Assembly (NCBI GenBank): GCA_963733375.1
Contig: CAVTDB010000026.1
Location: forward strand, 96,001-160,000
DNA: 64,000 nt
DNA from: Nitrospirota bacterium
GTDB lineage: Bacteria > Nitrospirota > JACRHJ01
Direction: 5' to 3'
Shown: in pieces, positions 37,370-54,603 of the stretch
Layout: every line of letters begins with the position of its first letter
Numbering within the stretch: position 1 is the stretch's first letter
Notes under the pieces: generated by a model
What the model was told of the DNA's origin: nothing
Databases searched by the model: none
Seen by the model: only the letters and a program-made list of their open reading frames with translations
Made by a program: the position numbers and the translations under genes

Positions 37370-37530
37370 TTTTTTTCCTCCGTGTTGCTTGAGGGCAAAG
37401 CACTTTAAGAACTGTTCCAACATACTCTGATGCGGTTTTTTTATCAAATTAATTGTTTTTAATTAATCCATATTAATCAAACAGTTAGCGGTAATGGTCT
37501 TAGGCGGCGCGTGGAGCATATACGTAAGCA

Positions 37531-37562
37531 TAAAAAAGCCCGCAACTTCACGTTGCGGGCTT
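37531..37562 (-). terminator. Hairpin terminator between the two paralogs
   Basis: AAAAAAGCCCGCAAC-TTCAC-GTTGCGGGCTT. Confidence 0.7.
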
Positions 37563-37587
37563 AGAGATTTTGGAAGTTTATTCAACT

Positions 37588-37618
37588 AAAAAAAGGGGTT
37601 GGACATAGCCCAACCCCC
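37588..37618 (-). terminator. Intrinsic terminator after the short NHL protein gene
   Basis: A run then GGGGTTGG...CCAACCCC; near copy of the hairpin at 32415. Confidence 0.65.
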
Positions 37619-37636
37619 ATCGCTTCCGTTCCTTTC

Positions 37637-40424: not shown

Positions 40425-40662
40425 TTTTGATTCCTCCGTGCTGTTTGGGGGTAATTCCCTTTCAGAACTGCCCCAAGATACGCTGGAGCGGGCCATGAAT
40501 CAAATTAAAAGTCTTTAATTAATCTTTATTAATCAAAGGTTAGCAGTAATGGTCTGTTAAAGAAATGGTTTTGGGTGGTAAGGAAAGCATGAAAAAGCTT
40601 TAAAAGCGGGCGCCTCGAACGATAAGTACATAGTTGTTTTTGTGTAGCGGCAATCACTGCCG

Positions 40663-40872
40663 TCATTGCATTTTTTCCTGCGTCATATCCTCCTTTCTTT
40701 CATCCTGCTTTAAGTGATATCCAAGATAGAAAGGACATATTCTGCATAAAACAGTAGTGCAGTACTCTCTTAGCTGGAAGTTACTGGGGCAGTACGATTC
40801 ATTCACTGTGCAACAGTGGTATGCAACCCTTTTTGACAGATGCGGACATCTTGTTTTAGGCATATTTAGCAC
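40663..40872 (-). CDS. Small Cys-rich protein of unknown function
   Basis: RCPHL...HCC...YCPSNFQLREYC...CRICPFY; GAGGGG upstream. Confidence 0.55.
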   Translation of the reverse strand: MLNMPKTRCPHLSKRVAYHCCTVNESYCPSNFQLREYCTTVLCRICPFYLGYHLKQDERKEDMTQEKMQ

Positions 40873-41196: not shown

Positions 41197-41487
41197 ATGG
41201 CGGGGTTGGGTGATATATTCAAGGGCAATATCGTTACTGCCGTAGTGATTGGGGTGGGTGCAATAATACTTGCGCCGGTGGCGGCCCGCGCGGCCAAACC
41301 GCTCGCCAAGGCCGCGTTAAAGGGCGGGCTGATTGCCTTTGAGAAGGGCAAGGAGGCGTTTCACGAGGTGAGCGAGGTGGTCGAGGACCTGGTGGCAGAG
41401 GTCAAGGCGGAGATGGAGAAGGAGGAGGCGAAGGAAACCCTTGAATCCATTGTCGCTGAAGGGGGAGAGATTACAAGTGCCTCCTAA
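41197..41487 (+). CDS. DUF5132-like small Gly-rich membrane-associated protein
   Basis: IGVGAIILAP...KPLAKAALKGG...E..EDLVAEVKAE; GGGAGG RBS. Confidence 0.75.
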   Translation: MAGLGDIFKGNIVTAVVIGVGAIILAPVAARAAKPLAKAALKGGLIAFEKGKEAFHEVSEVVEDLVAEVKAEMEKEEAKETLESIVAEGGEITSAS

Positions 41488-42004
41488 AGCCGGGCCGGAA
41501 GCGCCGTCGGCCTATATAAGCCATGCGACAAAAGGAAGGGTGCGGTTCAAGATACCTTCCAAGAAGGGCAACGCCCGTTTCTTTGCAAATATCAAGGACG
41601 TTCTTGAAAAAAATACCAGGGTCGCGGGTGTTGAAGTCAATCCCGTGACCGGCAGCGCCCTTGTCACCCACAATGCCGACATGGATTCCATAATCAAGCT
41701 CGCGGAGTCGAACAAGTTCTTCAAGCTCGAAAAGCGCGGACGGCGGCATGTATCCAACAACGTGGTAGAGAGCTTCAAGAGCCTGGACAATACGTTGAAA
41801 TCCGCGACGGACGGAGAGCTTGACCTGCCCACCGCGTCATTCCTGACGCTGGCGGGAGTCGGGATATATGAAATTGCGAAAGGCAATTTCGCCGCGCCCG
41901 CATGGTATACCGCATTCTGGTATGCGCTCAACATATTCCTGAAGGCAAGGCCTGACGCCAATGAAATCGAAAGAGAGCTTGTTCCACTTGGCGTTATCGA
42001 ATAA
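41477..42004 (+). CDS. HMA2/CoBaHMA-like domain protein with a C-terminal hydrophobic segment
   Basis: SHATKGRVRFKIP...VEVNPVTGSALVTH with no CxxC; tail LAGVGIYEI..GNFAAPAWYTAFWYA. Confidence 0.75.
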   Translation: MPPKAGPEAPSAYISHATKGRVRFKIPSKKGNARFFANIKDVLEKNTRVAGVEVNPVTGSALVTHNADMDSIIKLAESNKFFKLEKRGRRHVSNNVVESFKSLDNTLKSATDGELDLPTASFLTLAGVGIYEIAKGNFAAPAWYTAFWYALNIFLKARPDANEIERELVPLGVIE

Positions 42005-42016
42005 TGCAAGGGCAAT

Positions 42017-45000
42017 GTGGTACAGCCTATACATACTGCGGTCAGAGGGAGAGCACGGTATAAGGTAAAAGGACTTTACCACTCCGAATCCCTCAAAACA
42101 GATATCGAAAAGGGCCTCTTTAATGAGGCTCGTGTAATTTCTTTTTCCGTCAACATCCTGACCGGAAACGTCCTTGTATTTTTTCCTCCCGAAGAATCCA
42201 GCTCCGTAATAGCCTCACTGCTCAAATCCATTGTAGACAGCTACATAAAAAAACTTCAGGAATCCGGCCCGCCAGCCAGGACGGTAACCTCACCCGCAAA
42301 GGCAAAAGCTGAGCTTCGGGAAAAGTTCAAGAGAATCAGGCCGTCATGAAGAACAGGACGCGGCGCACTGGCATCTTATCAGTTCCGAAGACGCCCTCAA
42401 TCTCACACGCTCTCAGGCAGGCTACGGCCTCACGTCCGAGGCCGCGGCGGATAAGCTCAGGAAATTCGGACCGAACCTCCTGCCGGAGGCTGTAAAGCGC
42501 TCCGGCCTTGAGATATTCGCGGAACAGTTCAAATCGATTCCGGTTGCGCTTCTGGGTGTAGCCGCGGGCCTTTCAATCTTTACGGGAGGCATATCCGACG
42601 CGGTCCTTATCGCGGGCGTGGTCCTCATCAACGCCGCAATCGGTTATGTCACTGAAACCCAGGCCGAAAAAACCATCAGTTCGTTGAAAACCCTGGTCAG
42701 GCCTTACGCGACTGTCTTAAGAGACGGCTTGCCGACAGAACTGGATGCCAAAGACGTGGTGCCGGGCGACGTCATTATCCTGAAACCCGGCAGTTACGTG
42801 GCTGCGGACTCAAGGCTTATAGAGGCCGATTTTCTCACCGTCGACGAGTCGGCCCTCACCGGCGAGAGCATGCCGGTGACAAAGAATACCGAGACGCTGG
42901 TAAAGCTGGACGTGCCCCTTGCGGACAGATTGAATATGGCTTATATGGGGACTCTTGTAATCGGGGGACAGGGCTATGCCGTGGTCGTCGCCACAGGCGA
43001 GTTCACCGAAATAGGCAGGATTCAGACGATGATGGGGGAAGCCCAGTCGCCGGAGACTCCCATGGAGAGACAGCTCCGGGTAATGGGCGGACAGTTAGTC
43101 GTCATAAGCGGGGGCGTGTGCGCCGTCGTGTTCATAATCGGCCTGTTACGGGGATATGGGTTCCTGCAGATGCTGCAGTCGTCGATATCCCTTGCCGTGG
43201 CCGCGGTCCCCGAGGGCCTGCCCACGATCGCGACTACGACCCTTGCGCTCGGGATAAGGAAGATGCGAAGGCATAACGTGCTTATCCGGCATCTGGAAGC
43301 GGTGGAAACCCTGGGTTCAGTCCAGACCATCTCGTTCGACAAGACCGGCACGATCACGATGAACAGGATGACCGTGGTGGAGGTTTACGCAGGCGGCATA
43401 AGGTTAAAGATATCAGACGGCAAATTCATCTCGGATGCGGACAGAGTGAATCCCTATGCGATGAAAGAGCTGCTGATGCTGCTGCACGTATCGGTCATAT
43501 GCAATGAGACCAAAATAGACTTCAAAGACGGCGAATACGAGCTTCGAGGCTCGCCCACGGAAATCGCGCTGATTAACCTGGCTATAAACGCTGGCATAGA
43601 CGTAGTGGAACTAAGGGCAAGGCACCCCATCCGAAAGATAAGCCATCGCTCGGAGAGCCGCAACTACATGAGCACCATGCACGGGGCGAAGGGCGGCGGC
43701 AAAATTTTCGCGGTAAAGGGAAGCCCGTCGGAAGTCCTTGCGATGTGCAAGTGGCATATGAAGGGCGGGCAGACGCTTCAACTTACCGAGGATGACAGGC
43801 AGGAGATATTCACGGAAAACGAGAGGATGGCCGGCGCTTCCATGAGGATGCTGGGTGCGGCTTTCAATTATTCCGGTGAAAACGGCAATGGGCTGATATG
43901 GCTGGGCCTTATCGGCATGGCGGACCCCGTTAGGAAGGGACTCAAGAACCTTATGGCCGGTTTTCACCAGGCCGGCATCGATACGATAATGATAACGGGC
44001 GACCAGAGCCCTACCGCGTTTGCAATCGGCAAGGAGCTGAACCTGAGCCAGGACAAGCAACTCGAAATACTGGATTCGACGCATCTTGCCGATATGGACA
44101 AGGAAGTCCTGCGGGCGCTCGCCGCGAGGGTGCATGTTTACGCCAGGGTAAGTCCGGCGCATAAGCTCCAGATAGTCAGGGCATTGCAGGAATCCGGGAA
44201 GGTGGTCGCCATGACGGGCGACGGAATAAACGACGGCCCGGCGCTGAAGGCGGCGGACATCGGGATTGCGCTTGGGCATACCGGGACGGACGTAGCCAGG
44301 GAAGTGGCGGATATCGTCCTGGAAGACGATAACCTGGAGACGATGATAGTGGCGGTCAGCCATGGAAGGACAATATATAACAACATCCGCAAATCGGTCC
44401 ACTACCTGCTTGCCACCAACTTAAGCGAAATCAACGTAATGTTTCTTGCTATCGCGGGCGGCCTGGGCCAGCCCCTGAGCGCGATACAGCTCCTTTGGAT
44501 AAACCTCCTTTCGGATATCTTCCCCGGGCTTGCGCTGGCGCTCGAACTGCCCGAGCCGGACGTTCTGTCCCGGCCGCCCAGGGACCCGCACGAGCCGATA
44601 ATAAAGCGCTCTGACTTTAAAAGGATCGCTTTTGAGTCGGCGCTTTTGTCCGGCGGGGCGCTTGGGGCTTATGGATACGGAATAGCGAGGTATGGGATGG
44701 GGGCAAAGGCAAACACGATGGCGTTTACGACCCTGACGACCGCCCAGCTGGTGCACGCAATAAGCTGCCGCTCAGAGACGGAAAGCATCTTCGGCAAGGA
44801 AAAGATGCCGCCGAACCCTTATCTCAACACGGCGCTCGGGGTTTCTCTCGCCTTGCAGGTTCTGACCCTGGCGATACCGGGTTTAAGGAGGCTCCTTGGA
44901 ATTACGACGATCGGGTTTGCCGACGCGGCCGTTATCGGCGCCGGCTCCATACTGCCATTTCTGATAAACGAGGCGACGAAGAGTAAACCTTCGGAAAAAG

Positions 45001-45122
45001 CTGATCGCGAAAAAAGCGCCTCCGCGCTTGAAAGCACCGTACCTTCAACCGAACGGGAGACGAACGGATATGAGAAAGAATTTCATGTTTACCTCGGAGT
45101 CGGTAACGGAAGGACACCCTGA
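42017..45122 (+). CDS. P2A (Ca2+-type) P-type ATPase with an N-terminal HMA2-like domain (frameshifts at about 42300-42430)
   Basis: IHTAVRGRARYKV...NILTGNVLV; DESALTGES, AVAAVPEGLP, DKTGT, KGSP, MITGD, TGDGINDGPAL, ATNLSE, LWINLLSD. Confidence 0.9.
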
Positions 45123-46260
45123 CAAACTTTGCGACCTTATAGCCGACGGTATCGTGGACCACTTCCTCCAGCAGGACCCGCTCTCCAAGGTGGTCGCCGA
45201 GTGCGCGGTTTCCACGTCCATCGTATTCATCGCGGCGAGGTTCGCTTCCACGGCCATTGTGGATTTTCCGGCGGTTGCGAGACAGATAATAGACCAGGTA
45301 GGCTATGATCAGCCGGCCTTTAACGCGAAGACGTGCAGCATACTTACAAGCCTGAGGGAGCTTCCGGAGAAAGAGCGCCCGGCCGTGGACGAGAAGGACA
45401 TGTCGGATGAGGAGATCGAGGCGATGCCGGCAAGAAACCAGGTCACGGTCTTCGGTTATGCCTGCGATCAGACATCGGTATTGATGCCGCTCCCGATATG
45501 GCTCGCGCACAAGCTGGCCAGGCGGCTTACGATGGTGAGGCTGACGAAGACGCTTCCCTACCTCTGCCCGGACGGAAAGACCCAGGTGGGGGTGGAGTAC
45601 AGGGATTTTAAGCCGCACCGGATACACAGCATAACGATAGTCGCGAGCCAGGACAAAACCGGCGTGCCCGTCCTTAAAAACCTGCACGAAGAAATAAAGG
45701 GGGCGGTGATCGACGAGGTCTTCAAGGACGAGAGAATAAAACCGGACGACAAGACACATATATTCGTGAACCCGAGGGGGCAGTTGATAGTGGGCGGCCC
45801 CTCCGTGCATTCCGGCCTTACGGGCAGGAAAAACGCCATCGACACTTACGGCGAATATTCGAGGCAAAGCGGCGCGGCGCTCTCCGGCAAGGACCCGTCG
45901 AGGATTGACAGAGTCGGGGCCTATGCCGCGCGGCATGCGGCAAAGACAGTGGTCGCGGCGGGGCTTGCAACGGAGTGCGAGGTCCAGTTGAGCTATTCAA
46001 TCAACCTCTCAAGGCCGGTGAGCGTGCAGGTGGAGACGTTCGGCACCGGCAAAATTGGCGATGAGGAGATAGCCTCGATGCTGGAGAAAAATTTCGATTT
46101 CAGGCTAGCCGGAATAATAAAAAAGTTCAACCTGAGGCACCTGCCGTCTTTAATCAAGGGAGGCTTTTACAGGAAGCTTGCCGCATACGGCCATATGGGC
46201 AGGATGGACATGGGACTGCCCTGGGAAGTAACGGAAAAGATATCCGCGTTCAGGAGGTAG
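45070..46260 (+). CDS. Divergent S-adenosylmethionine synthetase (MetK) paralog
   Basis: FTSESVTEGHPDK, PDGKTQV, GLTGRK..DTYG, SGKDP, AAYGH retained; GAGDQG and GGGAFSGKD signatures altered; GGAGA RBS. Confidence 0.88.
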   Translation: MRKNFMFTSESVTEGHPDKLCDLIADGIVDHFLQQDPLSKVVAECAVSTSIVFIAARFASTAIVDFPAVARQIIDQVGYDQPAFNAKTCSILTSLRELPEKERPAVDEKDMSDEEIEAMPARNQVTVFGYACDQTSVLMPLPIWLAHKLARRLTMVRLTKTLPYLCPDGKTQVGVEYRDFKPHRIHSITIVASQDKTGVPVLKNLHEEIKGAVIDEVFKDERIKPDDKTHIFVNPRGQLIVGGPSVHSGLTGRKNAIDTYGEYSRQSGAALSGKDPSRIDRVGAYAARHAAKTVVAAGLATECEVQLSYSINLSRPVSVQVETFGTGKIGDEEIASMLEKNFDFRLAGIIKKFNLRHLPSLIKGGFYRKLAAYGHMGRMDMGLPWEVTEKISAFRR

Positions 46261-46261
46261 C

Positions 46262-46495
46262 ATGCTGAATTATCTTTATGACGACGAGGCGGAACGGCAG
46301 ATACACCTGCACGCTATGCAAATACTCTGCAAGGAGATAATACTCCCGGAGGAGGAAATAAGGGAATTGTACGAGCGGGAACTGGAAAGACTGAAGGGAA
46401 CCGCGAGGGTCAAGGATTTTCTGGTCGTGCTCGTCTGCAGGGCCGTGAGAGACACCCTGCGCAGGCACCGGGAAAATGAGGAGTTGGCCTCATGA
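46262..46495 (+). CDS. DUF3562-like small helical protein
   Basis: EEIRELYEREL..LK..ARVKDFL.VLV.R.VR; starts 1 nt after the metK-like stop. Confidence 0.65.
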   Translation: MLNYLYDDEAERQIHLHAMQILCKEIILPEEEIRELYERELERLKGTARVKDFLVVLVCRAVRDTLRRHRENEELAS

Positions 46496-46498
46496 CCC

Positions 46499-47359
46499 TC
46501 ACCCGGCCCCGTCTTTTTCTCCGTCTTTCGGTGTCACGTTTTTCATTAAAAAATCCACGATAACAGCCGCCGTCAGGGCCAGTATCAAGAGCCCCGCCGC
46601 AGTCATGATGCTGTTCAGCAGGTCGGGGCCGAACACCAGGACCAAACCAAGGCCGAACATCATGAAGCCGGAAACCAGGTTCAAAAACTTTCCCTGGCGG
46701 GCCTGCGTCTTTTTTGTCCCCAGGCTTACCGCGAAGATAAGGACAATGGCCGCGAGCGGTATGACATAGACGATGCAGTAAAGAAGAAGATAGGAGTAAT
46801 AATCGACCGTGGAGAGCTTGAACAGGGTCAGGCCCCTTGTGAATATCAGCGGGAACCCCAGCGAGCTGACCATCTCATAGACGTTTACGGCTATGGCAAG
46901 AAGGCTTGCGCCCGCTATCATCGGGACCGTGCGTTTTGAGTGCAGGAGCCCTTTAATCCTGGATATTACGGTATTGCCGGGTTTGTCGGAGTTTAAAAAA
47001 TTTTCTCCGTCACCATCCGTGAAATAGCTCCTTACATTCAGGCCGCCCACTATAACCGCGGCTATGCCTGCCGACATCGTTATTATCCTTAAGTGGCCGA
47101 CAAAAAGGAATACGTTCAGCCATGCGGCTATGAAGATGAAGTAGATTAAACCCGAGAATAAAACGAAGGTCCCGCCGATAAGGAGCATCCTGCTTCTCGA
47201 CCGCTCACTTATCAGCAGGCCCAGGAGAAACGAGAGGACGAAAAAAGCGACTGGGTTAACGCTGTCCAGCGCTGCGAGTATTACCGTAAACAAAGCTGGG
47301 GAGATTGATGAAGGATCAACCTTCCCCAGCAAAGGCAGGATTAATAAGGCATTGGACAT
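46499..47359 (-). CDS. CcdA/DsbD-beta-like multi-pass membrane protein lacking the redox cysteines
   Basis: LDSVNPVAFFVLSFLL, SRSRML..GG.FV, NVYEMVSSLGFP, YY.YL.LY..VYVIPL, LNLVSG.MM.GLG. Confidence 0.6.
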   Translation of the reverse strand: MSNALLILPLLGKVDPSSISPALFTVILAALDSVNPVAFFVLSFLLGLLISERSRSRMLLIGGTFVLFSGLIYFIFIAAWLNVFLFVGHLRIITMSAGIAAVIVGGLNVRSYFTDGDGENFLNSDKPGNTVISRIKGLLHSKRTVPMIAGASLLAIAVNVYEMVSSLGFPLIFTRGLTLFKLSTVDYYSYLLLYCIVYVIPLAAIVLIFAVSLGTKKTQARQGKFLNLVSGFMMFGLGLVLVFGPDLLNSIMTAAGLLILALTAAVIVDFLMKNVTPKDGEKDGAG

Positions 47360-48038
47360 TACCTGCTTTTCTTCCTCGCTTTTGCATGCTCTTCCGCGCC
47401 TCGGCCTCAGCCGGTTCCGCTTCTTCCGCCGCCGTCTTCCAACAGCCCTCTTCGGAAGCGCCGCGCTGGCTACATCTTTCAAGCCGCCCACCACGCCGAT
47501 AAGGACATCTTTCACGGTGGCCACGGCGGCATTTCCGATGGAGCCCGCCGCCTCAACGGCGCCGCCTACCGCGGAAACCGCGACTTCTTCGAGATTGCCG
47601 CCCACTTCCTTCGCGGCCTCGATTATCCCGTCTACCGCGCCCTTTGCCACAATAGCGACATCCGCGCCGACTTCGGCGGCGCCCTTAACGGCGCCTCTTG
47701 CGGTCTGGCTTGCGGCCGTGACAACGTCTCCGCTGATATCGCTTATCCCCATCACGGCGCCTTTAGCGACGCTTCTCGTGCTGTTGATAAGGTTCGCGCC
47801 CACTTCCTCGGAGGCCTGTATAGCCCCTTTCAGGACATCCGCCGTCACGTTCACGGCCTGGTCCGTCACCGTGCCCGTGGCCTTGATGGTATTTGAAACC
47901 GTATCGCGCACAAGACGTCACTATCTCGGCCTCTATCTCATTCAGCCCCTGCAGGCTTGAAGTTATCTCACCTTTTACGGTAGTACCTGCTTTTCCTATC
48001 GACATGCCGGGATGTTCCAACGCTTCTTCCTTAGCCAT
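47359..48038 (-). CDS. Ala/Gly/Val-rich protein with 22-aa amphipathic repeats (frameshifts near 47915 and 47400-47440)
   Basis: MAKEEALEH start after GGAGG; repeats such as VLKGAIQASEEVGANL / VAKGAVMGISDISGDV / TARGAVKGAAEVGADV; probable TAA overlaps the next ATG. Confidence 0.7.
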
Positions 48039-48153
48039 AAAGCCCTCCGTAGTTAAATGTACCATTTAAGTATAGCATTCCCGGAAAACTCATAACCCAT
48101 TGTCCCGCAGTGATTTTCATTACTTACCTATCATCAGGTAAGTATCGGTCAAT

Positions 48154-48444
48154 TCATACGACCTGCCTGAGCCTTTCGGCGTATGTGCCGCTTTTTACCA
48201 GGATTTCTCTCTTTATCTCGGCTAAAGTAACTATGACCTCGTCTATTTCCTCCGGCGCCAGGATGACCGTATCGTTTGTCTCCGTCGGACATTCGCCCGT
48301 ATTGCAGAGGTAGAGGTGTTTTTCACCCCGTACGCCAAAAAGAAGCGTCGTTCCCGATTTCAGCGGGATCATTTTTTTACCGTCTTTTAAGGCCACTATC
48401 ATTTTATCATCTCCTTTTCCGCTATAGACAGAAGCCAGACTCAA
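48154..48444 (-). CDS. Hypothetical protein
   Basis: Open frame in operon orientation; GGAGA upstream of an internal ATG; no recognised family. Confidence 0.45.
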   Translation of the reverse strand: MSLASVYSGKGDDKMIVALKDGKKMIPLKSGTTLLFGVRGEKHLYLCNTGECPTETNDTVILAPEEIDEVIVTLAEIKREILVKSGTYAERLRQVV

Positions 48445-48609
48445 CCATACGGAGGTGATGTTACCACTTTATTGTTACAACCTTATTGTGTCTAAAAGAA
48501 TTTATTGTTAAGCAGAGGAACTGAACTGGTATGAAACTGGAAAAATACTACACTCTCCGCTTGAGCGGCAATGGCAGGACCGGCAGCGGTTATTTAAACT
48601 TGTTTTCTC

Positions 48610-48981
48610 TTACAGCAGTACGCTTAAAAGTGAAAGCGCGGAGCCCTCGAAGACCAGATCGACCGCGACGCCGAAGACAGCCTTGCTAACGGCGCGGCCG
48701 GCCTTATGGGCCGCCTGGTGCACGTACTGGTCGTTGGTTACAGCCTTTGAATAATCGAAATAACCTTTTTTTGCCATTTCGGAAACTATGGCTTTGTGCG
48801 TCACGGAGATGGGGTCGTAATTGATGACGATGCTGCCGGTAACGGTGTTGGTAGCGACGGCGGTAACTCCGTCAATGGAGCTTATCTCACCTTCGATCCT
48901 TGCAGCCATCAACTCCTTGCCCTTGATGACCGGGGTCTTGACTCTGAGCCTGCCAGGTACATTGTGCATGTAATAGCTCAA
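48610..48981 (-). CDS. Stand-alone HMA2/CoBaHMA-like protein
   Basis: MSYYMHNVPGRLRVKTP...IDGVTAVATNTVTGSIVINYDP; amphipathic C-terminus; GGAGG RBS. Confidence 0.8.
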   Translation of the reverse strand: MSYYMHNVPGRLRVKTPVIKGKELMAARIEGEISSIDGVTAVATNTVTGSIVINYDPISVTHKAIVSEMAKKGYFDYSKAVTNDQYVHQAAHKAGRAVSKAVFGVAVDLVFEGSALSLLSVLL

Positions 48982-49286
48982 ATCTCACCTCCCTTGATTT
49001 TTATATACGTCCTGCAAACCGGATATCCGGAGCATCGGAACCTCCAGAAAACGTCCTCCCTCCGGTATATGTGCATATGTTTGCCGCAGACGGGACATAA
49101 AGGTTTGTGGTTTATAACAGGTCTTTTGCTCCCCAGGGTAAACTGTTTGTTGCATATCAGACACAGATACCGCTGTTTTTCCCGTGAAGTGTGCCCGTAC
49201 CTGTAAATTGCTTCGCTTCCGCATGAAGGGCATTCAATTTCCCCGGTCCATCCTTGGGCGGCTTTGTCATGCCTACAGTTATACAA
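48978..49286 (-). CDS. Double zinc-ribbon protein (IS1 InsA-like ribbon plus topoisomerase C4-like ribbon); start uncertain
   Basis: CPSCGS..IYRYG....KQRYLCLICNKQF and CPVCGK.M...RCSGYPVC; stop overlaps the HMA2 ATG. Confidence 0.7.
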   Translation of the reverse strand: MYNCRHDKAAQGWTGEIECPSCGSEAIYRYGHTSREKQRYLCLICNKQFTLGSKRPVINHKPLCPVCGKHMHIYRREDVFWRFRCSGYPVCRTYIKIKGGEI

Positions 49287-49332
49287 TATTTAAATTACAG
49301 GGTAATTAACGAATTGTTAAGATTTGGTTACA
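49278..49332 (-). promoter_or_regulatory. Pho-box-like (OmpR/PhoB family) direct repeats plus -10 element
   Basis: Minus strand TGTAAC, CTTAAC, GTTAAT, TGTAAT at 49327, 49316, 49305, 49294 (11-bp period), then TATAAC 10 nt downstream. Confidence 0.6.
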
Positions 49333-49401
49333 GTCGAAATCAGAGGGGAATTTATATGGTTTGCCGAAATCAGGGGGGCCTTTATAAAGACCCCCATTGT
49401 G

Positions 49402-49803
49402 TCAACTTTTAGCTTTGGCCGCCTTGGTAGCCACTTTTTTTGCCGGTTTAGGCCGGGATACCGTCTCTTCCTTGCGCGGCGCCGCTTTCTTTATGGCCGC
49501 CTTCGCGGAAGACACATGCCGCGCCACCGTTCCTCCCACGCCTGCCCCGGCTGCCGCGGCTAAGAGAGGCTCGTCGGCTGCGGCGTGACGTTCGGATTTT
49601 ATTTCCGCCACCAGGTCGCCGACCACTTCGCCGACGTCATGGTACGCCTCCCTGCCTTTATCATACGCGACCAGCCCTCCTTTTATGGCCATCTTCACGA
49701 CCGGCTTCGCCACCCTGGCGATAATCGGCACGAATATGATGCCCCCGACGCCTATCGCCAGCGCCGTCACTATGTTCCCTTTGAACAGGTCATCAATTCC
49801 CAT
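49402..49803 (-). CDS. Second DUF5132-like protein with a Lys/Ala-rich basic tail
   Basis: FKGNIVTALAIGVGGIIFVP..KPVVK.AIKGG...DLVAEIKSE is paralogous to 41197; tail KAAIKKAAP...PKPAKKVATKAAKAKS. Confidence 0.78.
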   Translation of the reverse strand: MGIDDLFKGNIVTALAIGVGGIIFVPIIARVAKPVVKMAIKGGLVAYDKGREAYHDVGEVVGDLVAEIKSERHAAADEPLLAAAAGAGVGGTVARHVSSAKAAIKKAAPRKEETVSRPKPAKKVATKAAKAKS

Positions 49804-49874: not shown

Positions 49875-50261
49875 TTATATACCCAGGAATTCAGCGACCT
49901 TGCTCCTTAATTCGTAAAGGTTGCCTTTGCATATATAACCCCGCAGCCCATGTTCCGCGGCCGATTTGCGCAGGCTGTCTTCGTCGTTCGACGAAAGAAA
50001 AGCTACCGGGATGTCTTTGCAGGACATGGTGTTTTTTATTACTTGCGCGAGCGATTCGCCCGAGAGTGCGGGCATGTTTATATCGATCAGGATAAGGTCC
50101 GGCCGCAGGTCCTTTATTACATTCGTGGAGCCTAAGGCCTGGCTGTGGGTATGCGCTTCGTAACCCTCGTTTTCCATGATCTCTTTTGTCGTCAGAAGAA
50201 GTCTCTCGTCGTCATCGATTATCAATATTTTTTTCTTTTTCTTTTCCATTTCCATTTCCAT
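49875..50261 (-). CDS. Single-domain response regulator (receiver only)
   Basis: ILIIDDD, PDLILIDINMP, FLSS, GYICK. Confidence 0.88.
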   Translation of the reverse strand: MEMEMEKKKKKILIIDDDERLLLTTKEIMENEGYEAHTHSQALGSTNVIKDLRPDLILIDINMPALSGESLAQVIKNTMSCKDIPVAFLSSNDEDSLRKSAAEHGLRGYICKGNLYELRSKVAEFLGI

Positions 50262-51435
50262 TTCCGTTTCCGTTCTCCATTAAGTCAAGTGGAAGGCTGA
50301 TTTCAAACTTCGTGCCTTCTCCGAAGGTACTGCTGATAGAGATATCGCCTCCAAGCAGGTCAACCAGGTGCTTCGTTATGGTGAGGCCAAGCCCCGTCCC
50401 TTCATGCCTCTTCGTATGCGCGTCCTCAAGCTGGGTGAATGCCGTGAAAAGTCTTTTTAGGTCTTCCTCTCTTATGCCTATGCCGGTATCCCGGACTGAA
50501 ACGAGGAACCTGCCTTCTTCCTTACGCGCCTCAAGGATGATCCTTCCTTCATCCGTGAACTTTGCCGCGTTGCTCATGAGGTTCGTCAGTATCTGGCGGA
50601 GCTTGACCCGGTCCGTATAAATACTGAACGGACTTCCTATTACGTGGACCTCCACGGAAACGGCTTTTTTCCCGAGAAGCACGCGGGTGGTATCCGCGAC
50701 TTCTTTCAATACCGGGGCCGGGTCGAATAATTCAGGGATGACTTCCATCCGGCCCGCCTCGACCTTCGACAGGTCGAGTATGTTGGTAATAATAGCGCGC
50801 AGGCCAAGGGCGCTTGACGAGAGCAGGTCCAGCCGGTCCGTCAGCTGGTCGATGTATCCCTTATCGCATGATATCTTCATCAACTCGGCCAGGCCTATGA
50901 TGGCGTTGACCGGAGCCCTCAGTTCATGAGTCACGTTGGCGATGAACTGGGATTTGATGTTGTTGACCTTCTCCAGTTCCTTCGCCTTGGCGTTGGCCAG
51001 TTCCTTCTGCATGATGCTGTTGGCCAGGGCGTTGCTCTGCTCTATGACTATCCTTTTTATGGAGAGAAGCCCGATGAACTTATCGTCGTCATCGACGACC
51101 ACTATATCGTCATAGACGTCCTGGAACGGCCTGCAAAGCGCCCTGTCGAGCGTTTCGTCTATGCCGCGCGACATATTGATCGACAGGGGCTCTTTATCGG
51201 CTATGGTAAAAATCGGCTTCCGCTCGTGAAGCTCGAAACCGAACCTTCTAAACAGCGTGAAAAGCAACTTGTTCCTCGTAACGAGGCCGACGGGTTTACC
51301 CATATCCACGATGGCGAGCGCGTCGAGATGCTTCTCCTGAAAGAACCTTTCAGCCACTTCTTTTACGCGCATATCGGGAAAGATATGCTCTGTTGAAGTG
51401 ATAAGCTCTCCGATAGGAGTTATAGTCTCTTCCAT
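50212..51435 (-). CDS. Cytoplasmic histidine kinase with an N-terminal CBS pair
   Basis: CBS (KPVGLVTR; FIGLLS), H box THELRAP, NLMSNAAKF, DTGIGI, GTGLGL; no TM. Confidence 0.9.
   Translation of the reverse strand: MEETITPIGELITSTEHIFPDMRVKEVAERFFQEKHLDALAIVDMGKPVGLVTRNKLLFTLFRRFGFELHERKPIFTIADKEPLSINMSRGIDETLDRALCRPFQDVYDDIVVVDDDDKFIGLLSIKRIVIEQSNALANSIMQKELANAKAKELEKVNNIKSQFIANVTHELRAPVNAIIGLAELMKISCDKGYIDQLTDRLDLLSSSALGLRAIITNILDLSKVEAGRMEVIPELFDPAPVLKEVADTTRVLLGKKAVSVEVHVIGSPFSIYTDRVKLRQILTNLMSNAAKFTDEGRIILEARKEEGRFLVSVRDTGIGIREEDLKRLFTAFTQLEDAHTKRHEGTGLGLTITKHLVDLLGGDISISSTFGEGTKFEISLPLDLMENGNGNGNGNGKEKEKNIDNR
50243..50272. repeat. (TTTCCR)5 hexamer microsatellite
   Basis: TTTCCA x3 then TTTCCG x2 in the kinase/regulator overlap. 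Confidence 0.8.
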
Positions 51436-51454
51436 GATTTTCCTGTTCATACGG

Positions 51455-52244
51455 CTAATATGCGAACCATTTATCGAGGCTGTACAGGCCGGACACAACG
51501 CTTTCGCGGCTCTTTGCGGAGAGGTAGTTTCTGCTGACGGACCCTTTTTTTGCACTGACATCAGATTTTATCGCCCGGCTGAAATAAAGGAATGACTTTA
51601 TCCTCCGGACGCCCAGCAGGCTCCAGAGGTGAGGGAGGAGGGTCATTTCTCCGTACCAGGGTATCTCCGCCTTCTTGTCGCCGGAATAATATTTGATGCT
51701 GACGGGGATGACAGCAATGCCGGAGCGCGCGGGCGCCTCAAACAACATCCTCTTGAAATCCCCCGTCCCGCTGCCGTCGGTCGTGGTGCCTTCAGGGAAC
51801 GTAACCACGTTTACCCCGTGCGACAGCGCCGTCTCCACGTCCGACAGCGATTTCCACGATGCGAGCGCCGAGCGCCGGTCTATGAATACCGTCCCGGCGA
51901 GCCGCGCCATCCAGCCTATCAGCGGCCAGGACCGCACCTCCATCTTCGATACGAAAACCGACGGGGAGAGGCTCGCCATCACTAAAATGTCGATATAGCT
52001 GACGTGATTGCAGACGGTAAAACCGGTATTTTGCACCCTGTGCCCGGTGGAGCCTACGTCTATTCCCAGTATCAGCGCAGACGGCCCTGGCCCAGACCAT
52101 GCATCCGAATGCTGAAAATTTTGCCTTAAGCCTTGCATCAAAAATGAGGATAAGACGCCCCGCCTGGACGGGCGGCAGCATCAAGGCTGTCCAAAGGACC
52201 AGGAGCAATAGTCTTATTAGCCTGAGCGGAAAACGGCTGTCCAT
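51455..52244 (-). CDS. olsA: PlsC-family acyltransferase, probable lyso-ornithine lipid O-acyltransferase (frameshift near 52080)
   Basis: NHVSYID, FIDR, FPEGTT; coupled to olsB. Confidence 0.75.
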
Positions 52245-54462: not shown

Positions 54463-54603
54463 GGTCGCCTCCGTCATAGAATCCTTATTGCTAATCACTC
54501 CTAATAGTATAGCACTTTTTTAAAGTGCTTGCTTAGTGTGGTCGGCGGTGAAATTTGTAAAGTAGCTCACTCGCCCCTGTGTTTTTGTTCGCCCGCGCCC
54601 CCT

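What the first reader, a model, noticed from the sequence alone, without database searches (positions are those of the whole stretch)
41197..49803. Candidate new organelle or mineral-storage system: ferrosome-like accessory genes around a Ca2+-type pump and a repurposed MetK
Seen: two convergent gene runs. Plus strand: DUF5132-like, HMA2+TM, HMA2-P2A ATPase, divergent MetK, DUF3562-like, with overlapping or near-abutting ORFs. Minus strand: DUF5132-like with basic tail, double Zn ribbon, HMA2, hypothetical, 22-mer amphipathic protein, Cys-less CcdA-like protein. Three HMA-like domains share H...GR.R.K and N..TG(S/N) and lack CxxC. Established: ferrosome (fez) clusters pair a P1B-6 ATPase (FezB) with small GxxxG proteins and HMA-like proteins; cyanobacterial calcyanin combines a basic Cys-less HMA-like domain (CoBaHMA) with glycine zippers and is associated with intracellular CaCO3. 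Inference: a similar membrane-compartment toolkit coupled instead to a P2A pump, possibly forming a Ca (or Mn)/phosphate compartment, with a MetK-fold enzyme doing non-canonical chemistry. I know of no description of this combination.
Basis: partly seen in the sequence, partly recalled or inferred. Interest (0 to 1): 0.9.

Follow-up and report, generated by a model that had tools for sequence, protein, structure and literature searches.

The report
Conserved calcium-pump and MetK-like gene module
A calcium-type ion pump, an altered copy of the enzyme that normally makes S-adenosylmethionine, and several small membrane proteins form a gene set kept together in many bacterial phyla, and it is a strong untested candidate for building calcium-rich storage granules inside cells.

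Summary

What the tools added:
- **Pump gene split.** A 2-nt gap near 42336 splits the HMA_2-pump gene only in this assembly. Relatives read through.
- **Fused ORF.** The "22-mer protein" and the "CcdA-like protein" form one 470-aa ORF here.
- **Co-occurrence.** In 401 sampled genomes of the window's phylum, 54 carry the MetK paralog and 52 the pump ortholog; 51 carry both.
- **Adjacency.** Across 104 other loci from at least seven phyla, cyanobacteria included, the pump sits directly upstream of the paralog in 100. The other 4 are cut by contig ends. None of 26 canonical-MetK loci has it.
- **The paralog's active site.** It keeps the triphosphate/Mg residues but has rebuilt the methionine site: E55R, D238H, K269R.
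- **Accessory genes.** DUF5132 plus CoBaHMA proteins match the published neighbourhood of ccyA in Microcystis better than they match ferrosome clusters. Ferrosome clusters share only the CoBaHMA domain.
- **Phosphate link.** Phosphate-starvation genes flank 30 of 105 loci.

An organelle or mineral store is plausible but untested. I found no description of the module in print.

The parts
40663..40872 (-). Small Cys-rich protein (69 aa, CPHL...C...YC...CPF pattern), divergent from the operon start. Peripheral member.
   Evidence: It clusters with similar small ORFs just upstream of the module in 11 of 104 other loci. No Pfam family.
41197..41487 (+). DUF5132 protein (96 aa): N-terminal membrane segment followed by a long helix.
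   Evidence: Pfam PF17195, 48.6 bits. Hydrophobic segment at residues 12-30. A DUF5132 homolog was detected in 76 of 104 loci by tblastn.
41441..42004 (+). CoBaHMA (Pfam HMA_2) domain plus C-terminal helical hairpin (187 aa from the TTG; true start uncertain).
   Evidence: PF19991, 65 bits, covering profile positions 10-153 of 154. AF2 model pLDDT 85: extra N-terminal strand, beta-alpha-beta-beta-alpha core, then helices 84-102, 109-126 and 133-149. Best natural fold matches are HMA domains at weak E of 0.01-0.1. Homolog found in 71 of 104 loci.
42017..42349 (+). N-terminal CoBaHMA domain and linker of the pump, in frame 2. It ends at a stop created by the frameshift.
   Evidence: PF19991, 24.2 bits, below cut-off. 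Continuous with the ATPase in P0001 and in 110 of 120 listed homologs that carry PF19991. The motif H..GR.R.K is present.
42294..45122 (+). P2-type (SPCA/LMCA1-like) cation ATPase body in frame 0. No ATG, GTG or TTG start before 42618, so it depends on the upstream CoBaHMA ORF. The frameshift lies at about 42336.
   Evidence: Pfam Cation_ATPase_N, E1-E2_ATPase, Hydrolase, Cation_ATPase and Cation_ATPase_C. Best PDB matches: human SPCA1 at 507 bits and Listeria LMCA1 at 470 bits. Best NCBIfam model is PMR1-type at 630 bits, below its 798 cut-off. Frameshift evidence.
45070..46260 (+). MetK paralog (396 aa) with a rebuilt methionine site. Always directly downstream of the pump.
   Evidence: Three MetK Pfam domains. 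TIGR01034, 375.8 bits, above its cut-off. 44% identical to the genome's own canonical MetK at C26:476117-477235. Residue table.
46262..46495 (+). DUF3562 small protein (77 aa).
   Evidence: PF12085, 39.5 bits. NCBIfam three-helix-bundle dimerisation domain, 33.1 bits. Found in 31 of 104 loci.
47447..47911 (-). 22-residue-repeat helical protein domain (residues 1-155 of the 470-aa ORF). A separate 157-189-aa gene between the CoBaHMA-hairpin gene and the pump in most other loci.
   Evidence: tblastn matches cover only residues 1 to about 155. Homolog lengths. Repeat period 22. AF2 model all-helical, pLDDT 73. Weak Pfam Senescence in 32 of 47 members and Phasin_2 in 14 of 47. Found in 59 of 104 loci.
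46499..47359 (-). Six-segment membrane domain (residues 185-470 of the same ORF), a distant DsbD/CcdA-like protein without the NPC cysteine. Specific to this genus within the module.
   Evidence: Relatives P0121 and P0122 (92% and 89% identity) are stand-alone 286-aa proteins that start at the internal Met. More distant relatives are fused to glutaredoxin. One weak hit carries PF02683. NPV here versus NPC in P0125. No Pfam match of its own. No homolog in other module loci.
48154..48444 (-). Hypothetical protein of 96 aa.
   Evidence: No Pfam or NCBIfam family. A tblastn match was found only in the same-genus locus L008.
48610..48981 (-). Small CoBaHMA protein with a C-terminal membrane anchor (123 aa).
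   Evidence: PF19991, 49.4 bits, and PF00403, 31 bits. Hydrophobic segment at 105-123. Found in 74 of 104 loci, usually convergent with the operon.
48978..49286 (-). Double zinc-ribbon protein (102 aa, four CxxC pairs).
   Evidence: Several Zn-ribbon Pfam and NCBIfam models. Found in 46 of 104 loci.
49402..49803 (-). Second DUF5132 protein with an Ala/Lys-rich basic tail (133 aa).
   Evidence: PF17195, 40.2 bits. Hydrophobic segment at 7-25.
49875..51561 (-). Receiver-only response regulator (49875-50261) and CBS-domain histidine kinase (50212-51561). Probable regulators.
   Evidence: Pfam Response_reg; HisKA, HATPase_c and CBS. A homolog of one or both lies in 32 of 104 loci.
51455..53011 (-). 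PlsC-type acyltransferase (51455-52141) and GNAT protein resembling ornithine-lipid OlsB (52244-53011). Context only, not core.
   Evidence: Pfam Acyltransferase, 83 bits; Acetyltransf_5, 108.7 bits. A representative of the same cluster scores best with OlsB models, 166 bits, below their cut-off of 350. OlsB-like genes lie in 9 of 105 loci, window included.

Best explanation
The window holds one copy of a conserved, horizontally spread gene module.

Core, shown:
- A P2-type cation pump of the SPCA/LMCA1 kind, fused at its N-terminus to a CoBaHMA domain. CoBaHMA is an HMA-like fold with a basic surface and no metal-binding cysteines.
- Directly downstream, a MetK-derived enzyme.

Usual companions, shown:
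- A DUF5132 membrane protein.
- A CoBaHMA protein with a helical hairpin.
- A tail-anchored CoBaHMA protein.
- A protein built of 22-residue helical repeats.
- A zinc-ribbon protein.

Proposed mechanism, inferred:
1. The pump uses ATP to move Ca2+, or a similar divalent cation, out of the cytoplasm across a specialised membrane.
2. The small membrane and repeat proteins shape or coat that membrane.
3. The basic CoBaHMA domains tie pump activity to an anionic partner, either lipid or polyphosphate.
4. The cation ends up stored with phosphate, polyphosphate or carbonate.
5. The MetK-like enzyme has kept its triphosphate/Mg site but turned its methionine pocket from acidic to basic. It most likely binds or cleaves tri- or polyphosphate, or adenosylates an anionic acceptor. 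It no longer makes S-adenosylmethionine.

Shown: gene content, linkage, residue patterns. Inferred: the ion, the compartment, the enzyme's chemistry.
For: Linkage within the phylum:
- 54 of 401 sampled genomes carry a paralog at 61-100% identity and at least 524 bits. There is a clean gap to canonical MetK, at most 47% identity and 350 bits.
- 52 of 401 carry the pump ortholog at E <= 1e-200, and 51 of those 52 also carry the paralog. The exception, G045, has its pump at a contig end.
- Gene order A-B-G-pump-MetKp recurs in the 54 fetched loci.

Linkage beyond the phylum:
- Of the 80 loci kept from the genome-contig scan, 54 are H238-type. They come from Nitrospirota, Desulfobacterota, Binatia, Acidobacteriota, Gamma- and Alphaproteobacteria and Cyanobacteria (record titles).
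- 49 have the pump adjacent by a strict test. Of the other 5, four show an upstream pump hit that fails the strict test (three of them have the paralog at or near a contig end; L112 does not) and one begins at a contig start. 0 of 26 canonical loci have it.
- Over 104 distinct loci the pump is present in 100. The 4 misses have the paralog within 450 nt of a contig end.

Pump:
- Best solved relatives are SPCA1 and LMCA1.
- In 118 orthologs the motifs are near-invariant: PEGLP in M4, N..E in M5, N..SD in M6, Q..H in M8.

Enzyme:
- In 105 paralogs, R244, K245 and K265 are kept in 105 of 105, and D16 and K17 in all 102 readable sequences.
- D238 is H in 105 of 105 and K269 is R in 105 of 105. E55 is never E (R in 91). 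Q98 is never Q among the residues listed. G117 is R or K in 76.
- 28 canonical MetKs keep the standard residue at every one of these positions.

Accessory set:
- The same families surround ccyA in Microcystis and are co-expressed with it (passages).
- CoBaHMA on the pump plus CoBaHMA on small membrane proteins parallels fez loci.
- The repeat protein weakly resembles the Senescence and Phasin families. I recall both as droplet- or granule-surface proteins.

Phosphate link:
- PstS in 17 loci, PstC/A in 15, OlsB-like in 9, PhoH in 6, PsiE in 5. At least one lies in 30 of 105 loci, against 0 in the 26 control loci.

Field observations:
- Chlorogloeopsis fritschii PCC 6912, which carries the module, was reported with Ca- and P-rich inclusions (passages).
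- Nitrospirota are reported to make intracellular Ca carbonates whose genes are unknown (passages).
Against: - No experiment or expression data bears on this module. No RNA run held the stretch.
- As I recall, bacterial P2A-type pumps that have been studied export Ca2+ across the cell membrane, so a plain efflux role fits the pump alone.
- The pump misses NCBIfam's Ca-ATPase equivalog cut-offs (630 versus 798), so its ion is open.
- The Senescence and Phasin matches are weak. Fold search of the repeat protein gave only designed helical repeats at E >= 0.1.
- Phosphate-type neighbours are in under a third of loci. The control loci come from other phyla, so the contrast is crude.
- H238 invariance in the second set is partly circular, because H was in the search pattern. 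Only the 55 of 55 in the first set is free of this.
- H14 is N in 4 paralogs and K165 varies in 13 of 105. If the alignment is right there, this argues against one conserved adenosyl-transfer chemistry.
- In this very assembly the pump gene is frameshifted.
- The PCC 6912 and Nitrospirota inclusion reports are anecdotes, not associations that I tested.
Confidence: 0.45

Rival explanations
1. The module is a regulated cell-membrane export and homeostasis system for Ca2+ or Mn2+, not a storage compartment. The CoBaHMA domains sense anionic lipid content. The small proteins are regulators or assembly factors. The system is switched on during phosphate starvation and lipid remodelling, for example to expel Ca2+ released when polyphosphate is consumed. 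The MetK-like enzyme frees phosphate from tri- or polyphosphate.
For: - The pump's closest solved relatives include LMCA1, which I recall as a Listeria Ca2+ exporter.
- Pst, PhoH, PsiE and OlsB-like neighbours lie in 30 of 105 loci.
- A two-component system lies in 32 of 104 loci.
- CoBaHMA has been proposed to interact with anionic lipids (citing passages).
- The triphosphate site of the paralog is retained.
Against: - A simple exporter rarely needs five or more conserved accessory genes, among them a 22-residue-repeat helical protein and two kinds of membrane-anchored CoBaHMA proteins.
- The same accessory families sit beside the marker gene for intracellular Ca carbonate in Microcystis.
- Nothing here tests localisation either way.
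Confidence: 0.3
2. The cluster is a true ferrosome (fez) variant that stores iron. A P2-type pump has replaced FezB.
For: - CoBaHMA (HMA_2) domains with the motif H..GR.R.[KR] sit on P-type ATPases and in small neighbours in 9 of 10 fetched Desulfovibrionaceae loci. Each of those loci holds an ATPase with both P1B-6 motifs.
- The fez preprint describes an R-rich motif on FezB and an HMA plus two-TM FezC (passages).
Against: - The pump has PEGLP and the Cation_ATPase_N and C domains. It lacks D[YF]SCA and the P1B architecture.
- Its site residues are those of Ca2+ pumps.
- DUF5132 was found in 0 of 5 fez-bearing genomes, while the same search rang in the window's genome.
- No Feo, Fur or ferritin-like genes appeared among the recurrent neighbours.
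- The own genome shows HMA_2 only in this cluster, but it is only 81% complete.
Confidence: 0.05
3. The MetK paralog is an adenosyltransferase for a new anionic sulfur, selenium or other nucleophile. It would make a SAM-like cofactor that modifies a lipid or a protein of this membrane system. On this reading the pump link reflects supply of that product rather than phosphate chemistry.
For: - H14, D16, K17, D163 and K165 are kept in most paralogs, and the whole fold passes the MetK equivalog model.
- E55R and D238H swap the charges that, as I recall, hold the amino group of methionine. That change would suit an acceptor with an acid group.
Against: - F230, which as I recall stacks on adenine, is kept in only 61 of 105.
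- H14 is N in 4, and K165 varies in 13 of 105.
- No radical-SAM enzyme or methyltransferase recurs in the neighbourhoods.
Confidence: 0.15
4. The genes are neighbours by chance or by shared mobility and do not act together.
For: Distribution within the phylum is patchy, for example 0 of 76 in family f9 against 18 of 64 in f5. Identity across phyla is high, which indicates horizontal transfer.
Against: Pump and paralog are adjacent and co-oriented in 100 of 104 loci across at least seven phyla, with gaps of about -59 to +293 nt. They are never adjacent beside a canonical MetK. No transposase or integrase recurs in the neighbourhoods.
Confidence: 0.02

Closest known systems
ccyA (calcyanin) neighbourhood of Microcystis aeruginosa PCC 7806, linked to intracellular amorphous Ca carbonate (bioRxiv 10.1101/2024.07.07.602159; passages read)
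   Same: Two DUF5132 proteins, each a membrane segment plus a long helix. One CoBaHMA (Pfam HMA_2) domain fused to a helical hairpin. One further CoBaHMA protein. One Ca2+ transporter. All lie side by side, and several are co-expressed with ccyA.
   Different: - The transporter there is a Ca2+/H+ exchanger, not a P2-type ATPase.
- That account mentions no MetK paralog, no 22-residue-repeat protein and no zinc-ribbon protein.
- Calcyanin itself was not sought here, because I had no model or sequence for it.
- In Chlorogloeopsis fritschii PCC 6912 I saw no Ca2+/H+ exchanger gene, which is reported beside ccyA, within 10 kb of the module.
Ferrosome (fez) gene clusters: FezB P1B-6 ATPase, FezC, FezA (bioRxiv 10.1101/2020.01.10.902569; passages read)
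   Same: A P-type ATPase whose N-terminus carries the Arg-rich H..GR.R.K element, shown here to be Pfam HMA_2 in fez-type loci. A small protein with the same domain plus membrane helices. Further small hydrophobic proteins. The product there is a membrane-bound metal-phosphate granule.
   Different: - Pump class: P2 with PEGLP and Ca-site residues here, against P1B-6 with D[YF]SCA and HNxxT there.
- DUF5132 was not found in 5 of 5 fez-bearing genomes.
- No GxxxG in the DUF5132 segments here.
- No iron-homeostasis neighbours.
- fez clusters are not reported with a MetK paralog.
- The preprint's supplementary tables of Fez protein groups could not be read.
P2A-type Ca2+ pumps: human SPCA1, Listeria LMCA1, SERCA
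   Same: Domain order; DKTGT, TGES and PEGLP motifs; M5 N and E; M6 N and D.
   Different: - An N-terminal CoBaHMA domain of about 110 residues.
- Q where SPCA1 has D in M8.
- Scores fall below NCBIfam's equivalog cut-offs.
- Obligate linkage to a MetK paralog.
Methionine adenosyltransferase (MetK)
   Same: Three-domain fold. About 44-47% identity to canonical enzymes. Retained H14, D16, K17, E42, R244, K245, K265 and D271.
   Different: E55, Q98, G117, D118, G120, D238, G253, F262 and K269 are replaced in a family-wide pattern. There is an acidic insertion before the former GAGDQG motif, and the gating-loop region is not conserved. A canonical MetK is kept elsewhere in the same genomes.
Acidocalcisome-like polyphosphate bodies (recalled, not checked in any call)
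   Same: The idea of a membrane-bound Ca-polyphosphate store loaded by a Ca2+ pump.
   Different: No V-H+-PPase or VTC-like genes were seen. The resemblance is conceptual only.

Membership tests
Ferrosome (fez) cluster | A FezB-type P1B-6 ATPase with the D[YF]SCA and HNxxT transmembrane motifs | tested here: not met
   The pump is P2-type, with PEGLP and Cation_ATPase_N and C. The same motif scan did find DYSCA or DFSCA plus HNxxT in 9 of 10 Desulfovibrionaceae loci.
Ferrosome (fez) cluster | An Arg-rich N-terminal motif on the ATPase and on a FezC-like HMA plus membrane protein | tested here: met
   GRARYK on the pump, GRVRFK on the 187-aa protein and GRLRVK on the 123-aa protein. Pfam HMA_2 hits. 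The same domain occurs on ATPases and small neighbours in fez-type loci.
Ferrosome (fez) cluster | Small hydrophobic proteins with a GxxxG motif (FezA-like) | tested here: not met
   The DUF5132 membrane segments read IGVGAIIL and IGVGGIIF, with no GxxxG. DUF5132 was found in 0 of 5 fez-bearing genomes. Fez supplementary tables could not be read.
CoBaHMA domain (Pfam HMA_2, PF19991) | HMA-like ferredoxin fold with an extra N-terminal strand (beta0) | tested here: met
   AF2 model of the 187-aa protein, pLDDT 85: strands 3-10 and 13-17, helix 25-36, strands 41-47 and 52-57, helix 61-70. The top natural Foldseek matches are HMA domains, though with weak E of 0.01-0.1.
CoBaHMA domain (Pfam HMA_2, PF19991) | Conserved His before beta1, conserved basic residues in beta1 and beta2, and no CxxC | tested here: met
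   H, R and R are nearly invariant in 50 homologs. All three window domains have H..GR.R.K and no Cys. Definition taken from passages of PMC8890360.
CoBaHMA domain (Pfam HMA_2, PF19991) | Score above Pfam's gathering cut-off of 30 bits | tested here: met
   65 and 49.4 bits for two domains. The pump's own domain scores 24.2 bits as an isolated ORF, but 110 of 120 listed full-length homologs carry PF19991.
P2A-type Ca2+-ATPase (SERCA/SPCA/LMCA1) | P2 domain set and catalytic motifs (DKTGT, TGES, TGDGVND-like) | tested here: met
P2A-type Ca2+-ATPase (SERCA/SPCA/LMCA1) | Ca-site residues: E in M4, N and D in M6, and for site I, N and E in M5 | tested here: met
   The alignment to SPCA1 shows PEGLP and WIN..SD aligned. 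These are near-invariant in 118 orthologs. Which residues bind Ca2+ is recalled from the SERCA literature.
P2A-type Ca2+-ATPase (SERCA/SPCA/LMCA1) | Curated equivalog score (NCBIfam TIGR01522 or TIGR01116) | tested here: not met
   630 versus a cut-off of 798.3, and 542.6 versus 703.4. It is filed as P2-type. Ca2+ specificity is inferred.
P2A-type Ca2+-ATPase (SERCA/SPCA/LMCA1) | Ca2+-dependent ATP hydrolysis and transport | not testable with these tools
   Needs biochemistry.
Methionine adenosyltransferase (MetK) | Three-domain MetK fold and family score | tested here: met
   Pfam N, M and C domains. TIGR01034, 375.8 bits against a cut-off of 309.4.
Methionine adenosyltransferase (MetK) | Conserved residues of the methionine and K+ site (E55, Q98, D238; roles recalled) | tested here: not met
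   In 105 paralogs E55 is never E, Q98 is never Q among the residues listed, and D238 is H in 105 of 105. All 28 canonical sequences keep E, Q and D. It is therefore not filed as a working SAM synthetase.
Calcyanin (ccyA) locus for intracellular Ca carbonate | Presence of calcyanin with its triple glycine-zipper C-terminal domain | not tested
   No calcyanin sequence or model was available from any tool. The 22-residue-repeat protein was not compared with it.
Calcyanin (ccyA) locus for intracellular Ca carbonate | Accessory set: DUF5132, CoBaHMA-hairpin, CoBaHMA and a Ca2+ transporter | tested here: met
   compared with passages of the Microcystis preprint.

The most novel reading that the evidence does not exclude
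This module is the genetic toolkit for a widespread, so far unrecognised bacterial Ca2+ store: a membrane-bound Ca-polyphosphate or Ca-carbonate body.

- A CoBaHMA-gated P2 pump loads the cation.
- A MetK-derived enzyme with a new basic pocket does tri- or polyphosphate chemistry, or makes a new adenosylated anion, at the organelle surface.
- DUF5132, CoBaHMA-hairpin and 22-residue-repeat proteins build and coat the membrane.

It would account for Ca-rich inclusions in Nitrospirota, Desulfobacterota and cyanobacteria. It would also join ferrosomes and calcyanin granules into one CoBaHMA-based class of mineral organelles.
Probability: 0.3. Interest if true: 0.95.

Novelty: new variant of a known kind. 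Interest (0 to 1): 0.8.

Why it matters
- **An open question becomes testable.** Outside the calcyanin-carrying cyanobacteria and methanotrophs, the genes behind intracellular Ca-carbonate and Ca-rich phosphate inclusions are unknown. Passages of PMC12710302 list only generic permeases for Nitrospirota and never mention an ATPase. A tightly linked pump-plus-enzyme module that shares accessory families with the ccyA locus and with ferrosome loci gives a concrete target.
- **Cultured carriers exist.** The module occurs in cultured strains, named in record titles: Chlorogloeopsis fritschii PCC 6912, Rivularia sp. UHCC 0363, Vacuolonema LEGE 07170 and Methylocystis sp. L43.
- **A repurposed universal enzyme.** MetK is among the most conserved enzymes. 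A paralog family with an invariant D238H/K269R/F262L signature, always beside a pump, is a clear case of a universal enzyme turned to another use, with unknown chemistry.
- **A link between two literatures.** The Arg-rich motif of Fez proteins turns out to be the CoBaHMA/HMA_2 domain. No held paper contains both words.

Tried and rejected
- **Complex prediction.** Complex prediction (two MetK-paralog chains plus pump residues 1-135) was not available. No binding test was made.
- **ESM Atlas.** Closed for the membrane part of the 470-aa ORF.
- **Fold search of the repeat protein.** Only designed helical-repeat proteins, E >= 0.1 and TM about 0.4. No natural relative.
- **Fold search of the CoBaHMA-hairpin model.** HMA domains rank among the top hits, but no match reaches E <= 0.001.
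- **Membrane domain and 96-aa ORF.** Pfam at E up to 10 gave nothing meaningful for either.
- **Expression.** No RNA holder was listed for the stretch.
- **Read layout.** The best DNA holders held at most 0.28 of the sampled words. What was laid were contigs of ~95%-similar relatives from peat metagenomes, not this strain. The frameshift in this MAG therefore remains either a real lesion or an assembly error.
- **A spurious cluster.** A recurrent 118-aa ORF cluster (19 loci) turned out to be Ala-rich antisense reading of module genes and was dropped.
- **Other CoBaHMA loci.** Loci in a Geobacteraceae MAG and in C. fritschii PCC 6912 were fetched to look for P1B-6 pumps. None was found there. 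The Desulfovibrionaceae sample then gave them.
- **Limits of the counts.** Small accessory proteins were counted by tblastn with the window's own proteins, and many contigs are short, so those counts are lower bounds.
- **Literature.** Searches for a description of the module found nothing relevant:
  - ferrosome / FezB / DUF5132
  - CoBaHMA
  - DUF5132 / PF17195 / PF19991 / HMA_2
  - methionine adenosyltransferase / paralog / P-type ATPase / gene cluster
  - S-adenosylmethionine synthetase / second copy / divergent / calcium-transporting ATPase
  - ferrosome + CoBaHMA, 0 papers
- **Papers I could not read.** Gaschignard et al. 2024 (10.1002/prot.26668), which describes CoBaHMA architectures, is not held. 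It may already list CoBaHMA-P-type ATPase fusions.

Full report
**What is in the window**

The plus-strand run holds:
- a DUF5132 protein (41197-41487);
- a full-length HMA_2 protein (41441-42004);
- a short HMA_2 ORF (42017-42349);
- a P2-type cation ATPase ending at 45122;
- a MetK-fold protein (ATG at 45070, stop at 46260);
- a DUF3562 protein (46262-46495).

The converging minus-strand run holds:
- a DUF5132 protein with a basic tail (49402-49803);
- a double zinc-ribbon protein (48978-49286);
- a small HMA_2 protein with a C-terminal membrane anchor (48610-48981);
- a 96-aa ORF without family (48154-48444);
- a 470-aa ORF (46499-47911).

Further along the same strand come a receiver-only response regulator and a CBS-domain histidine kinase. 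After them lie a PlsC-type acyltransferase and an OlsB-like GNAT protein.

The three HMA-like domains have no cysteine and share H..GR.R.K and N..TG(S/N). [quoted passage not shown] The Microcystis preprint equates CoBaHMA with Pfam HMA_2.

**Two corrections**

*The pump gene is split.*
- The HMA_2 ORF is in frame 2 and the ATPase body in frame 0. Frame 0 has no ATG, GTG or TTG before 42618, well inside the pump.
- The closest database homolog, P0001 (92% identical), is a single 1035-aa protein. The junction reads KRIAGRHEEQ.
- The same-genus genome G010 reads through in frame.
- Contigs of ~95%-similar relatives in two peat runs, X1 and X4, carry two extra letters after 42336.
- So the fusion is the natural state, and this assembly has a 2-nt gap. 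Whether that is a real lesion or an assembly error I could not decide.

*The 470-aa ORF is two proteins elsewhere.*
- Residues 1-155 are six 22-residue repeats. In other genomes they match a separate 157-189-aa gene.
- Residues 185-470 match stand-alone 286-aa membrane proteins that start at the internal Met (P0121, 92% identical).
- More distant relatives of that part are fused to glutaredoxin, and one weak hit carries the DsbD domain. The usual NPC reads NPV here.
- This gene belongs to the module only in this genus.

**Is it a unit?**

The genome is a MAG of 2.39 Mb, 81% complete. It has a canonical MetK elsewhere, 44% identical to the paralog. HMA_2 and DUF5132 occur only in this cluster.

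Within the phylum, 401 genomes were searched. Record titles of matching loci name it Nitrospirota.
- The paralog query gave 55 places in 54 genomes at 61-100% identity and 524-892 bits. Nothing fell between those and canonical MetK, at most 47% and 350 bits.
- I fetched all 54 places outside the window. The pump lies directly upstream in 53. The one miss starts at a contig end.
- The usual order is: DUF5132, CoBaHMA-hairpin, 22-residue-repeat protein, CoBaHMA-pump, MetK paralog, sometimes DUF3562. The small CoBaHMA protein and the zinc-ribbon protein follow on the opposite strand, often with a kinase and regulator.
- The reverse query, the pump at E <= 1e-200, found 52 of 401 genomes. 51 of them have the paralog, and the exception has its pump at a contig edge.
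- Distribution is patchy by family: 18 of 64 in f5, 15 of 35 in f11, 0 of 76 in f9.

**Beyond the phylum**

A scan of one genome per prokaryotic species used a paralog alignment and the patterns GHPDKLCD and [SA]xHSGLTGRK.
- 54 are of the H238 type and 26 are ordinary MetK.
- By record title, the H238 type comes from Nitrospirota, Desulfobacterota (Syntrophobacteraceae, Desulfomonile, Desulfobacteraceae, Geobacteraceae, a Desulfovibrio), Binatia, Acidobacteriota, Gammaproteobacteria (Chromatiaceae), Alphaproteobacteria (Rhodoplanes, Rhodospirillales, Methylocystis sp. L43) and Cyanobacteria (Chlorogloeopsis fritschii PCC 6912, Rivularia, Crocosphaera, Vacuolonema, Richelia and others).
- The pump is adjacent and co-oriented in 49 by a strict test. 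Four of the other five show an upstream pump hit that fails the strict test (L083 and L103 near a contig end, L118 with a partial paralog match, L112 unexplained), and the fifth, L131, starts at a contig end. None of the 26 ordinary MetK loci has a pump.
- Four loci duplicated the first set and were removed. The combined count over 104 distinct loci is:

| Component | Loci of 104 |
|---|---|
| Pump | 100 |
| DUF5132 | 76 |
| Small CoBaHMA protein | 74 |
| CoBaHMA-hairpin | 71 |
| 22-residue-repeat protein | 59 |
| Zinc-ribbon protein | 46 |
| Kinase or regulator | 32 |
| DUF3562 | 31 |

Counts for the small proteins are lower bounds, because tblastn with one query is insensitive and many contigs are short.

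In C. fritschii the locus holds two DUF5132 genes, one of them fused to the hairpin part of HMA_2. A 1012-aa CoBaHMA-pump and the paralog follow.

**The pump**

- The best solved relatives are human SPCA1 (507 bits) and Listeria LMCA1 (470 bits), ahead of SERCA.
- The best NCBIfam model is the PMR1 type, below its equivalog cut-off.
- In 118 orthologs the ion-site motifs are almost invariant: VAAVPEGLP (M4), STN.SEI (M5), WINL.SD (M6) and GQLLHA (M8).
- Which of these residues bind Ca2+ I take from recalled SERCA and SPCA literature.
- This supports a working divalent-cation pump of the Ca2+ kind. It does not fix the ion.

**The MetK paralog**

I aligned the sequences against E. coli MetK (locus L062; literature numbering is gene numbering minus 1). 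One search compares 105 paralogs with 28 canonical sequences.

Kept in the paralogs:
- D16 and K17, 102 of 102 readable;
- E42, 103 of 103;
- R244, K245 and K265, 105 of 105;
- D271, 103 plus 2 with E;
- H14, 98 (N in 4);
- K165, 92 of 105.

Changed in the paralogs:
- E55 to R in 91, H in 5, M in 5, Q in 1 and K in 1, never E;
- Q98 to a variable, mostly hydrophobic residue;
- G117 to R or K in 76;
- D118 to N in 69;
- G120 to V or A in 101;
- D238 to H in 105 of 105;
- G253 to E in 83;
- F262 to L in 105 of 105;
- K269 to R in 105 of 105;
- F230 kept in only 61.

All 28 canonical sequences keep the standard residue at every one of these positions.

H238 was part of the search pattern for the second set. 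Only the 55 of 55 in the first set is an unbiased count.

As I recall the MetK literature, E55, Q98 and D238 hold the methionine, with D238 also part of the K+ site. H14, D16, K165, K245, K265 and D271 serve the triphosphate, the Mg ions and bond cleavage. On that reading the triphosphate half of the site is intact. The methionine half has gained several positive charges, and the adenine contact is relaxed.

I therefore infer a tri- or polyphosphate-binding or cleaving enzyme, or an adenosyltransferase for an anionic acceptor. I do not file it as a SAM synthetase.

**The accessory proteins**

- The CoBaHMA-hairpin protein models with pLDDT 85. It has an extra first strand, a ferredoxin-like core, then a long helix and a helical hairpin that carries a conserved W-Y..A.W-Y-A motif. 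Its best natural fold matches are HMA domains, with weak E-values.
- The repeat protein models as all-helical, pLDDT 73, with no natural solved relative.
- Pfam gives the repeat protein weak Senescence matches in 32 of 47 members (best 26.5 bits, just above cut-off) and Phasin_2 in 14 of 47. I recall both families as proteins that sit on lipid-droplet or storage-granule surfaces. This is a hint, not a membership.

**Comparison with ferrosomes**

Passages of the Grant and Komeili preprint define fez clusters by four features:
- a P1B-6 ATPase with D[YF]SCA and HNxxT;
- an Arg-rich N-terminal motif on FezB;
- FezC, an HMA domain plus two membrane helices;
- small GxxxG proteins.

What I found:
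- In a sample of 101 Desulfovibrionaceae genomes, 60 had HMA_2 matches.
- In 9 of 10 loci fetched around such matches there is an ATPase with both P1B-6 motifs. HMA_2 lies at the N-terminus of ATPases and in small neighbours there.
- So the Arg-rich motif is the CoBaHMA domain. No held paper contains both words.
- DUF5132 was found in 0 of 5 of these genomes, although the same search rings in the window's genome.
- The window's pump belongs to a different class.

The module is therefore not a fez cluster. It shares one design principle with it.

**Comparison with the calcyanin locus**

Passages of the Microcystis preprint place the following around ccyA:
- two DUF5132 proteins;
- a CoBaHMA-hairpin protein;
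- a second CoBaHMA protein;
- a Ca2+/H+ exchanger.

Several of these are co-expressed with ccyA. This is the same accessory set as here, with a different Ca2+ transporter.

Related reports:
- Passages of PMC12710302 report intracellular Ca carbonates in Nitrospirota with no specific genes. The word ATPase does not occur in its text.

These are leads, not tested associations.

**Phosphate context**

I clustered all ORFs of the module loci and named the recurrent neighbours. One search gives the counts:
- PstS in 17 loci, passing NCBIfam's equivalog cut-off;
- PstC/PstA in 15;
- OlsB-like GNAT in 9, the window included;
- PhoH in 6;
- PsiE in 5;
- a CDF transporter in 13;
- CorA in 7.

At least one phosphate-starvation-type gene lies in 30 of 105 loci. 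None lies in the 26 ordinary-MetK loci, 422 kb in total. That control comes from other phyla and is crude. In the window's own genome pstS and pstA lie on another contig.

**Verdict**

- The "ferrosome-like" label should be replaced by "CoBaHMA/DUF5132 module, closest to the ccyA neighbourhood".
- A Ca-type pump working with (poly)phosphate or carbonate storage on a specialised membrane is the best reading (0.45).
- Regulated envelope efflux is the main rival (0.3).
- I found no description of the pump-paralog pairing in the literature I could search.
- The one paper most likely to touch it, Gaschignard et al. 2024, is not held.

Noticed in passing
L153-L161 (Desulfovibrionaceae genomes G474, G426, G450, G417, G440, G422, G418, G458, G498): In fez-type loci the Pfam HMA_2 (CoBaHMA) domain sits at the N-terminus of P-type ATPases and in small neighbouring proteins. 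Many loci hold two or three ATPases, and in each of these nine loci one ATPase has both P1B-6 motifs. The 'R-rich motif' of the ferrosome literature therefore appears to be the CoBaHMA domain. No held paper contains both terms.
   Followed up: partly
G402 = Chlorogloeopsis fritschii PCC 6912, e.g. L148 (C1:5005000-5024900) and L149 (C1:6538000-6557900): This cyanobacterium has 18 HMA_2 matches. They include a block of multi-CoBaHMA proteins at about 5.011-5.017 Mb and three further CoBaHMA-fused P-type ATPases of 767, 779 and 937 aa.
   Followed up: no
window 40663-40872 (-) and, for a second family, L011:1153-1410, L014:12630-12839 and others: Two families of small Cys-rich proteins recur beside the module, in 11 and 10 of 104 loci: CPHL...C...YC...CPF and CPYLKG...C...C...C. 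Neither has a Pfam family. They may be metal-binding regulators.
   Followed up: partly
window 50186-50300: The end of the histidine kinase (...NGNGNGNGNGKEKEKN) and the start of the response regulator (MEMEMEKKKKK) overlap in a simple-sequence tract. It reads FPFPFPFPFPF in another frame. It might be a slippage-prone junction.
   Followed up: no
window 34608-40496 (-): A run of NHL-repeat / bacterial Ig-domain ORFs of 709, 128, 299, 158 and 462 aa looks like one or two very large surface proteins split into pieces. Together with the pump frameshift and the fragmented matches in same-genus genome G010, this suggests indel errors in these assemblies.
   Followed up: no
window 51455-53011 (-): A PlsC-type acyltransferase and an OlsB-like GNAT gene lie on the same strand right after the kinase and regulator. 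They may be an ornithine-lipid pair. OlsB-like genes recur in 9 of 105 module loci.
   Followed up: partly
G320:C30:6094-8883 and G397:C131:7296-9461: Second, more distant or partial copies of the pump occur in genomes that already have the module: 49% identity over a 958-aa ORF, and 61% over a 751-aa ORF. Their neighbours were not examined.
   Followed up: no
window 53773-54498 (-) and 58474-59328 (-): A Ysc84-domain protein and a KaiC-like ATPase lie downstream of the cluster. No link to the module was seen.
   Followed up: no
L124 (Methylocystis sp. L43) and L112 (Rhodospirillales MAG): These are the most divergent H238-type paralogs, 48-49% identical to the window's. They still have the pump upstream at 44% identity.
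   Followed up: no
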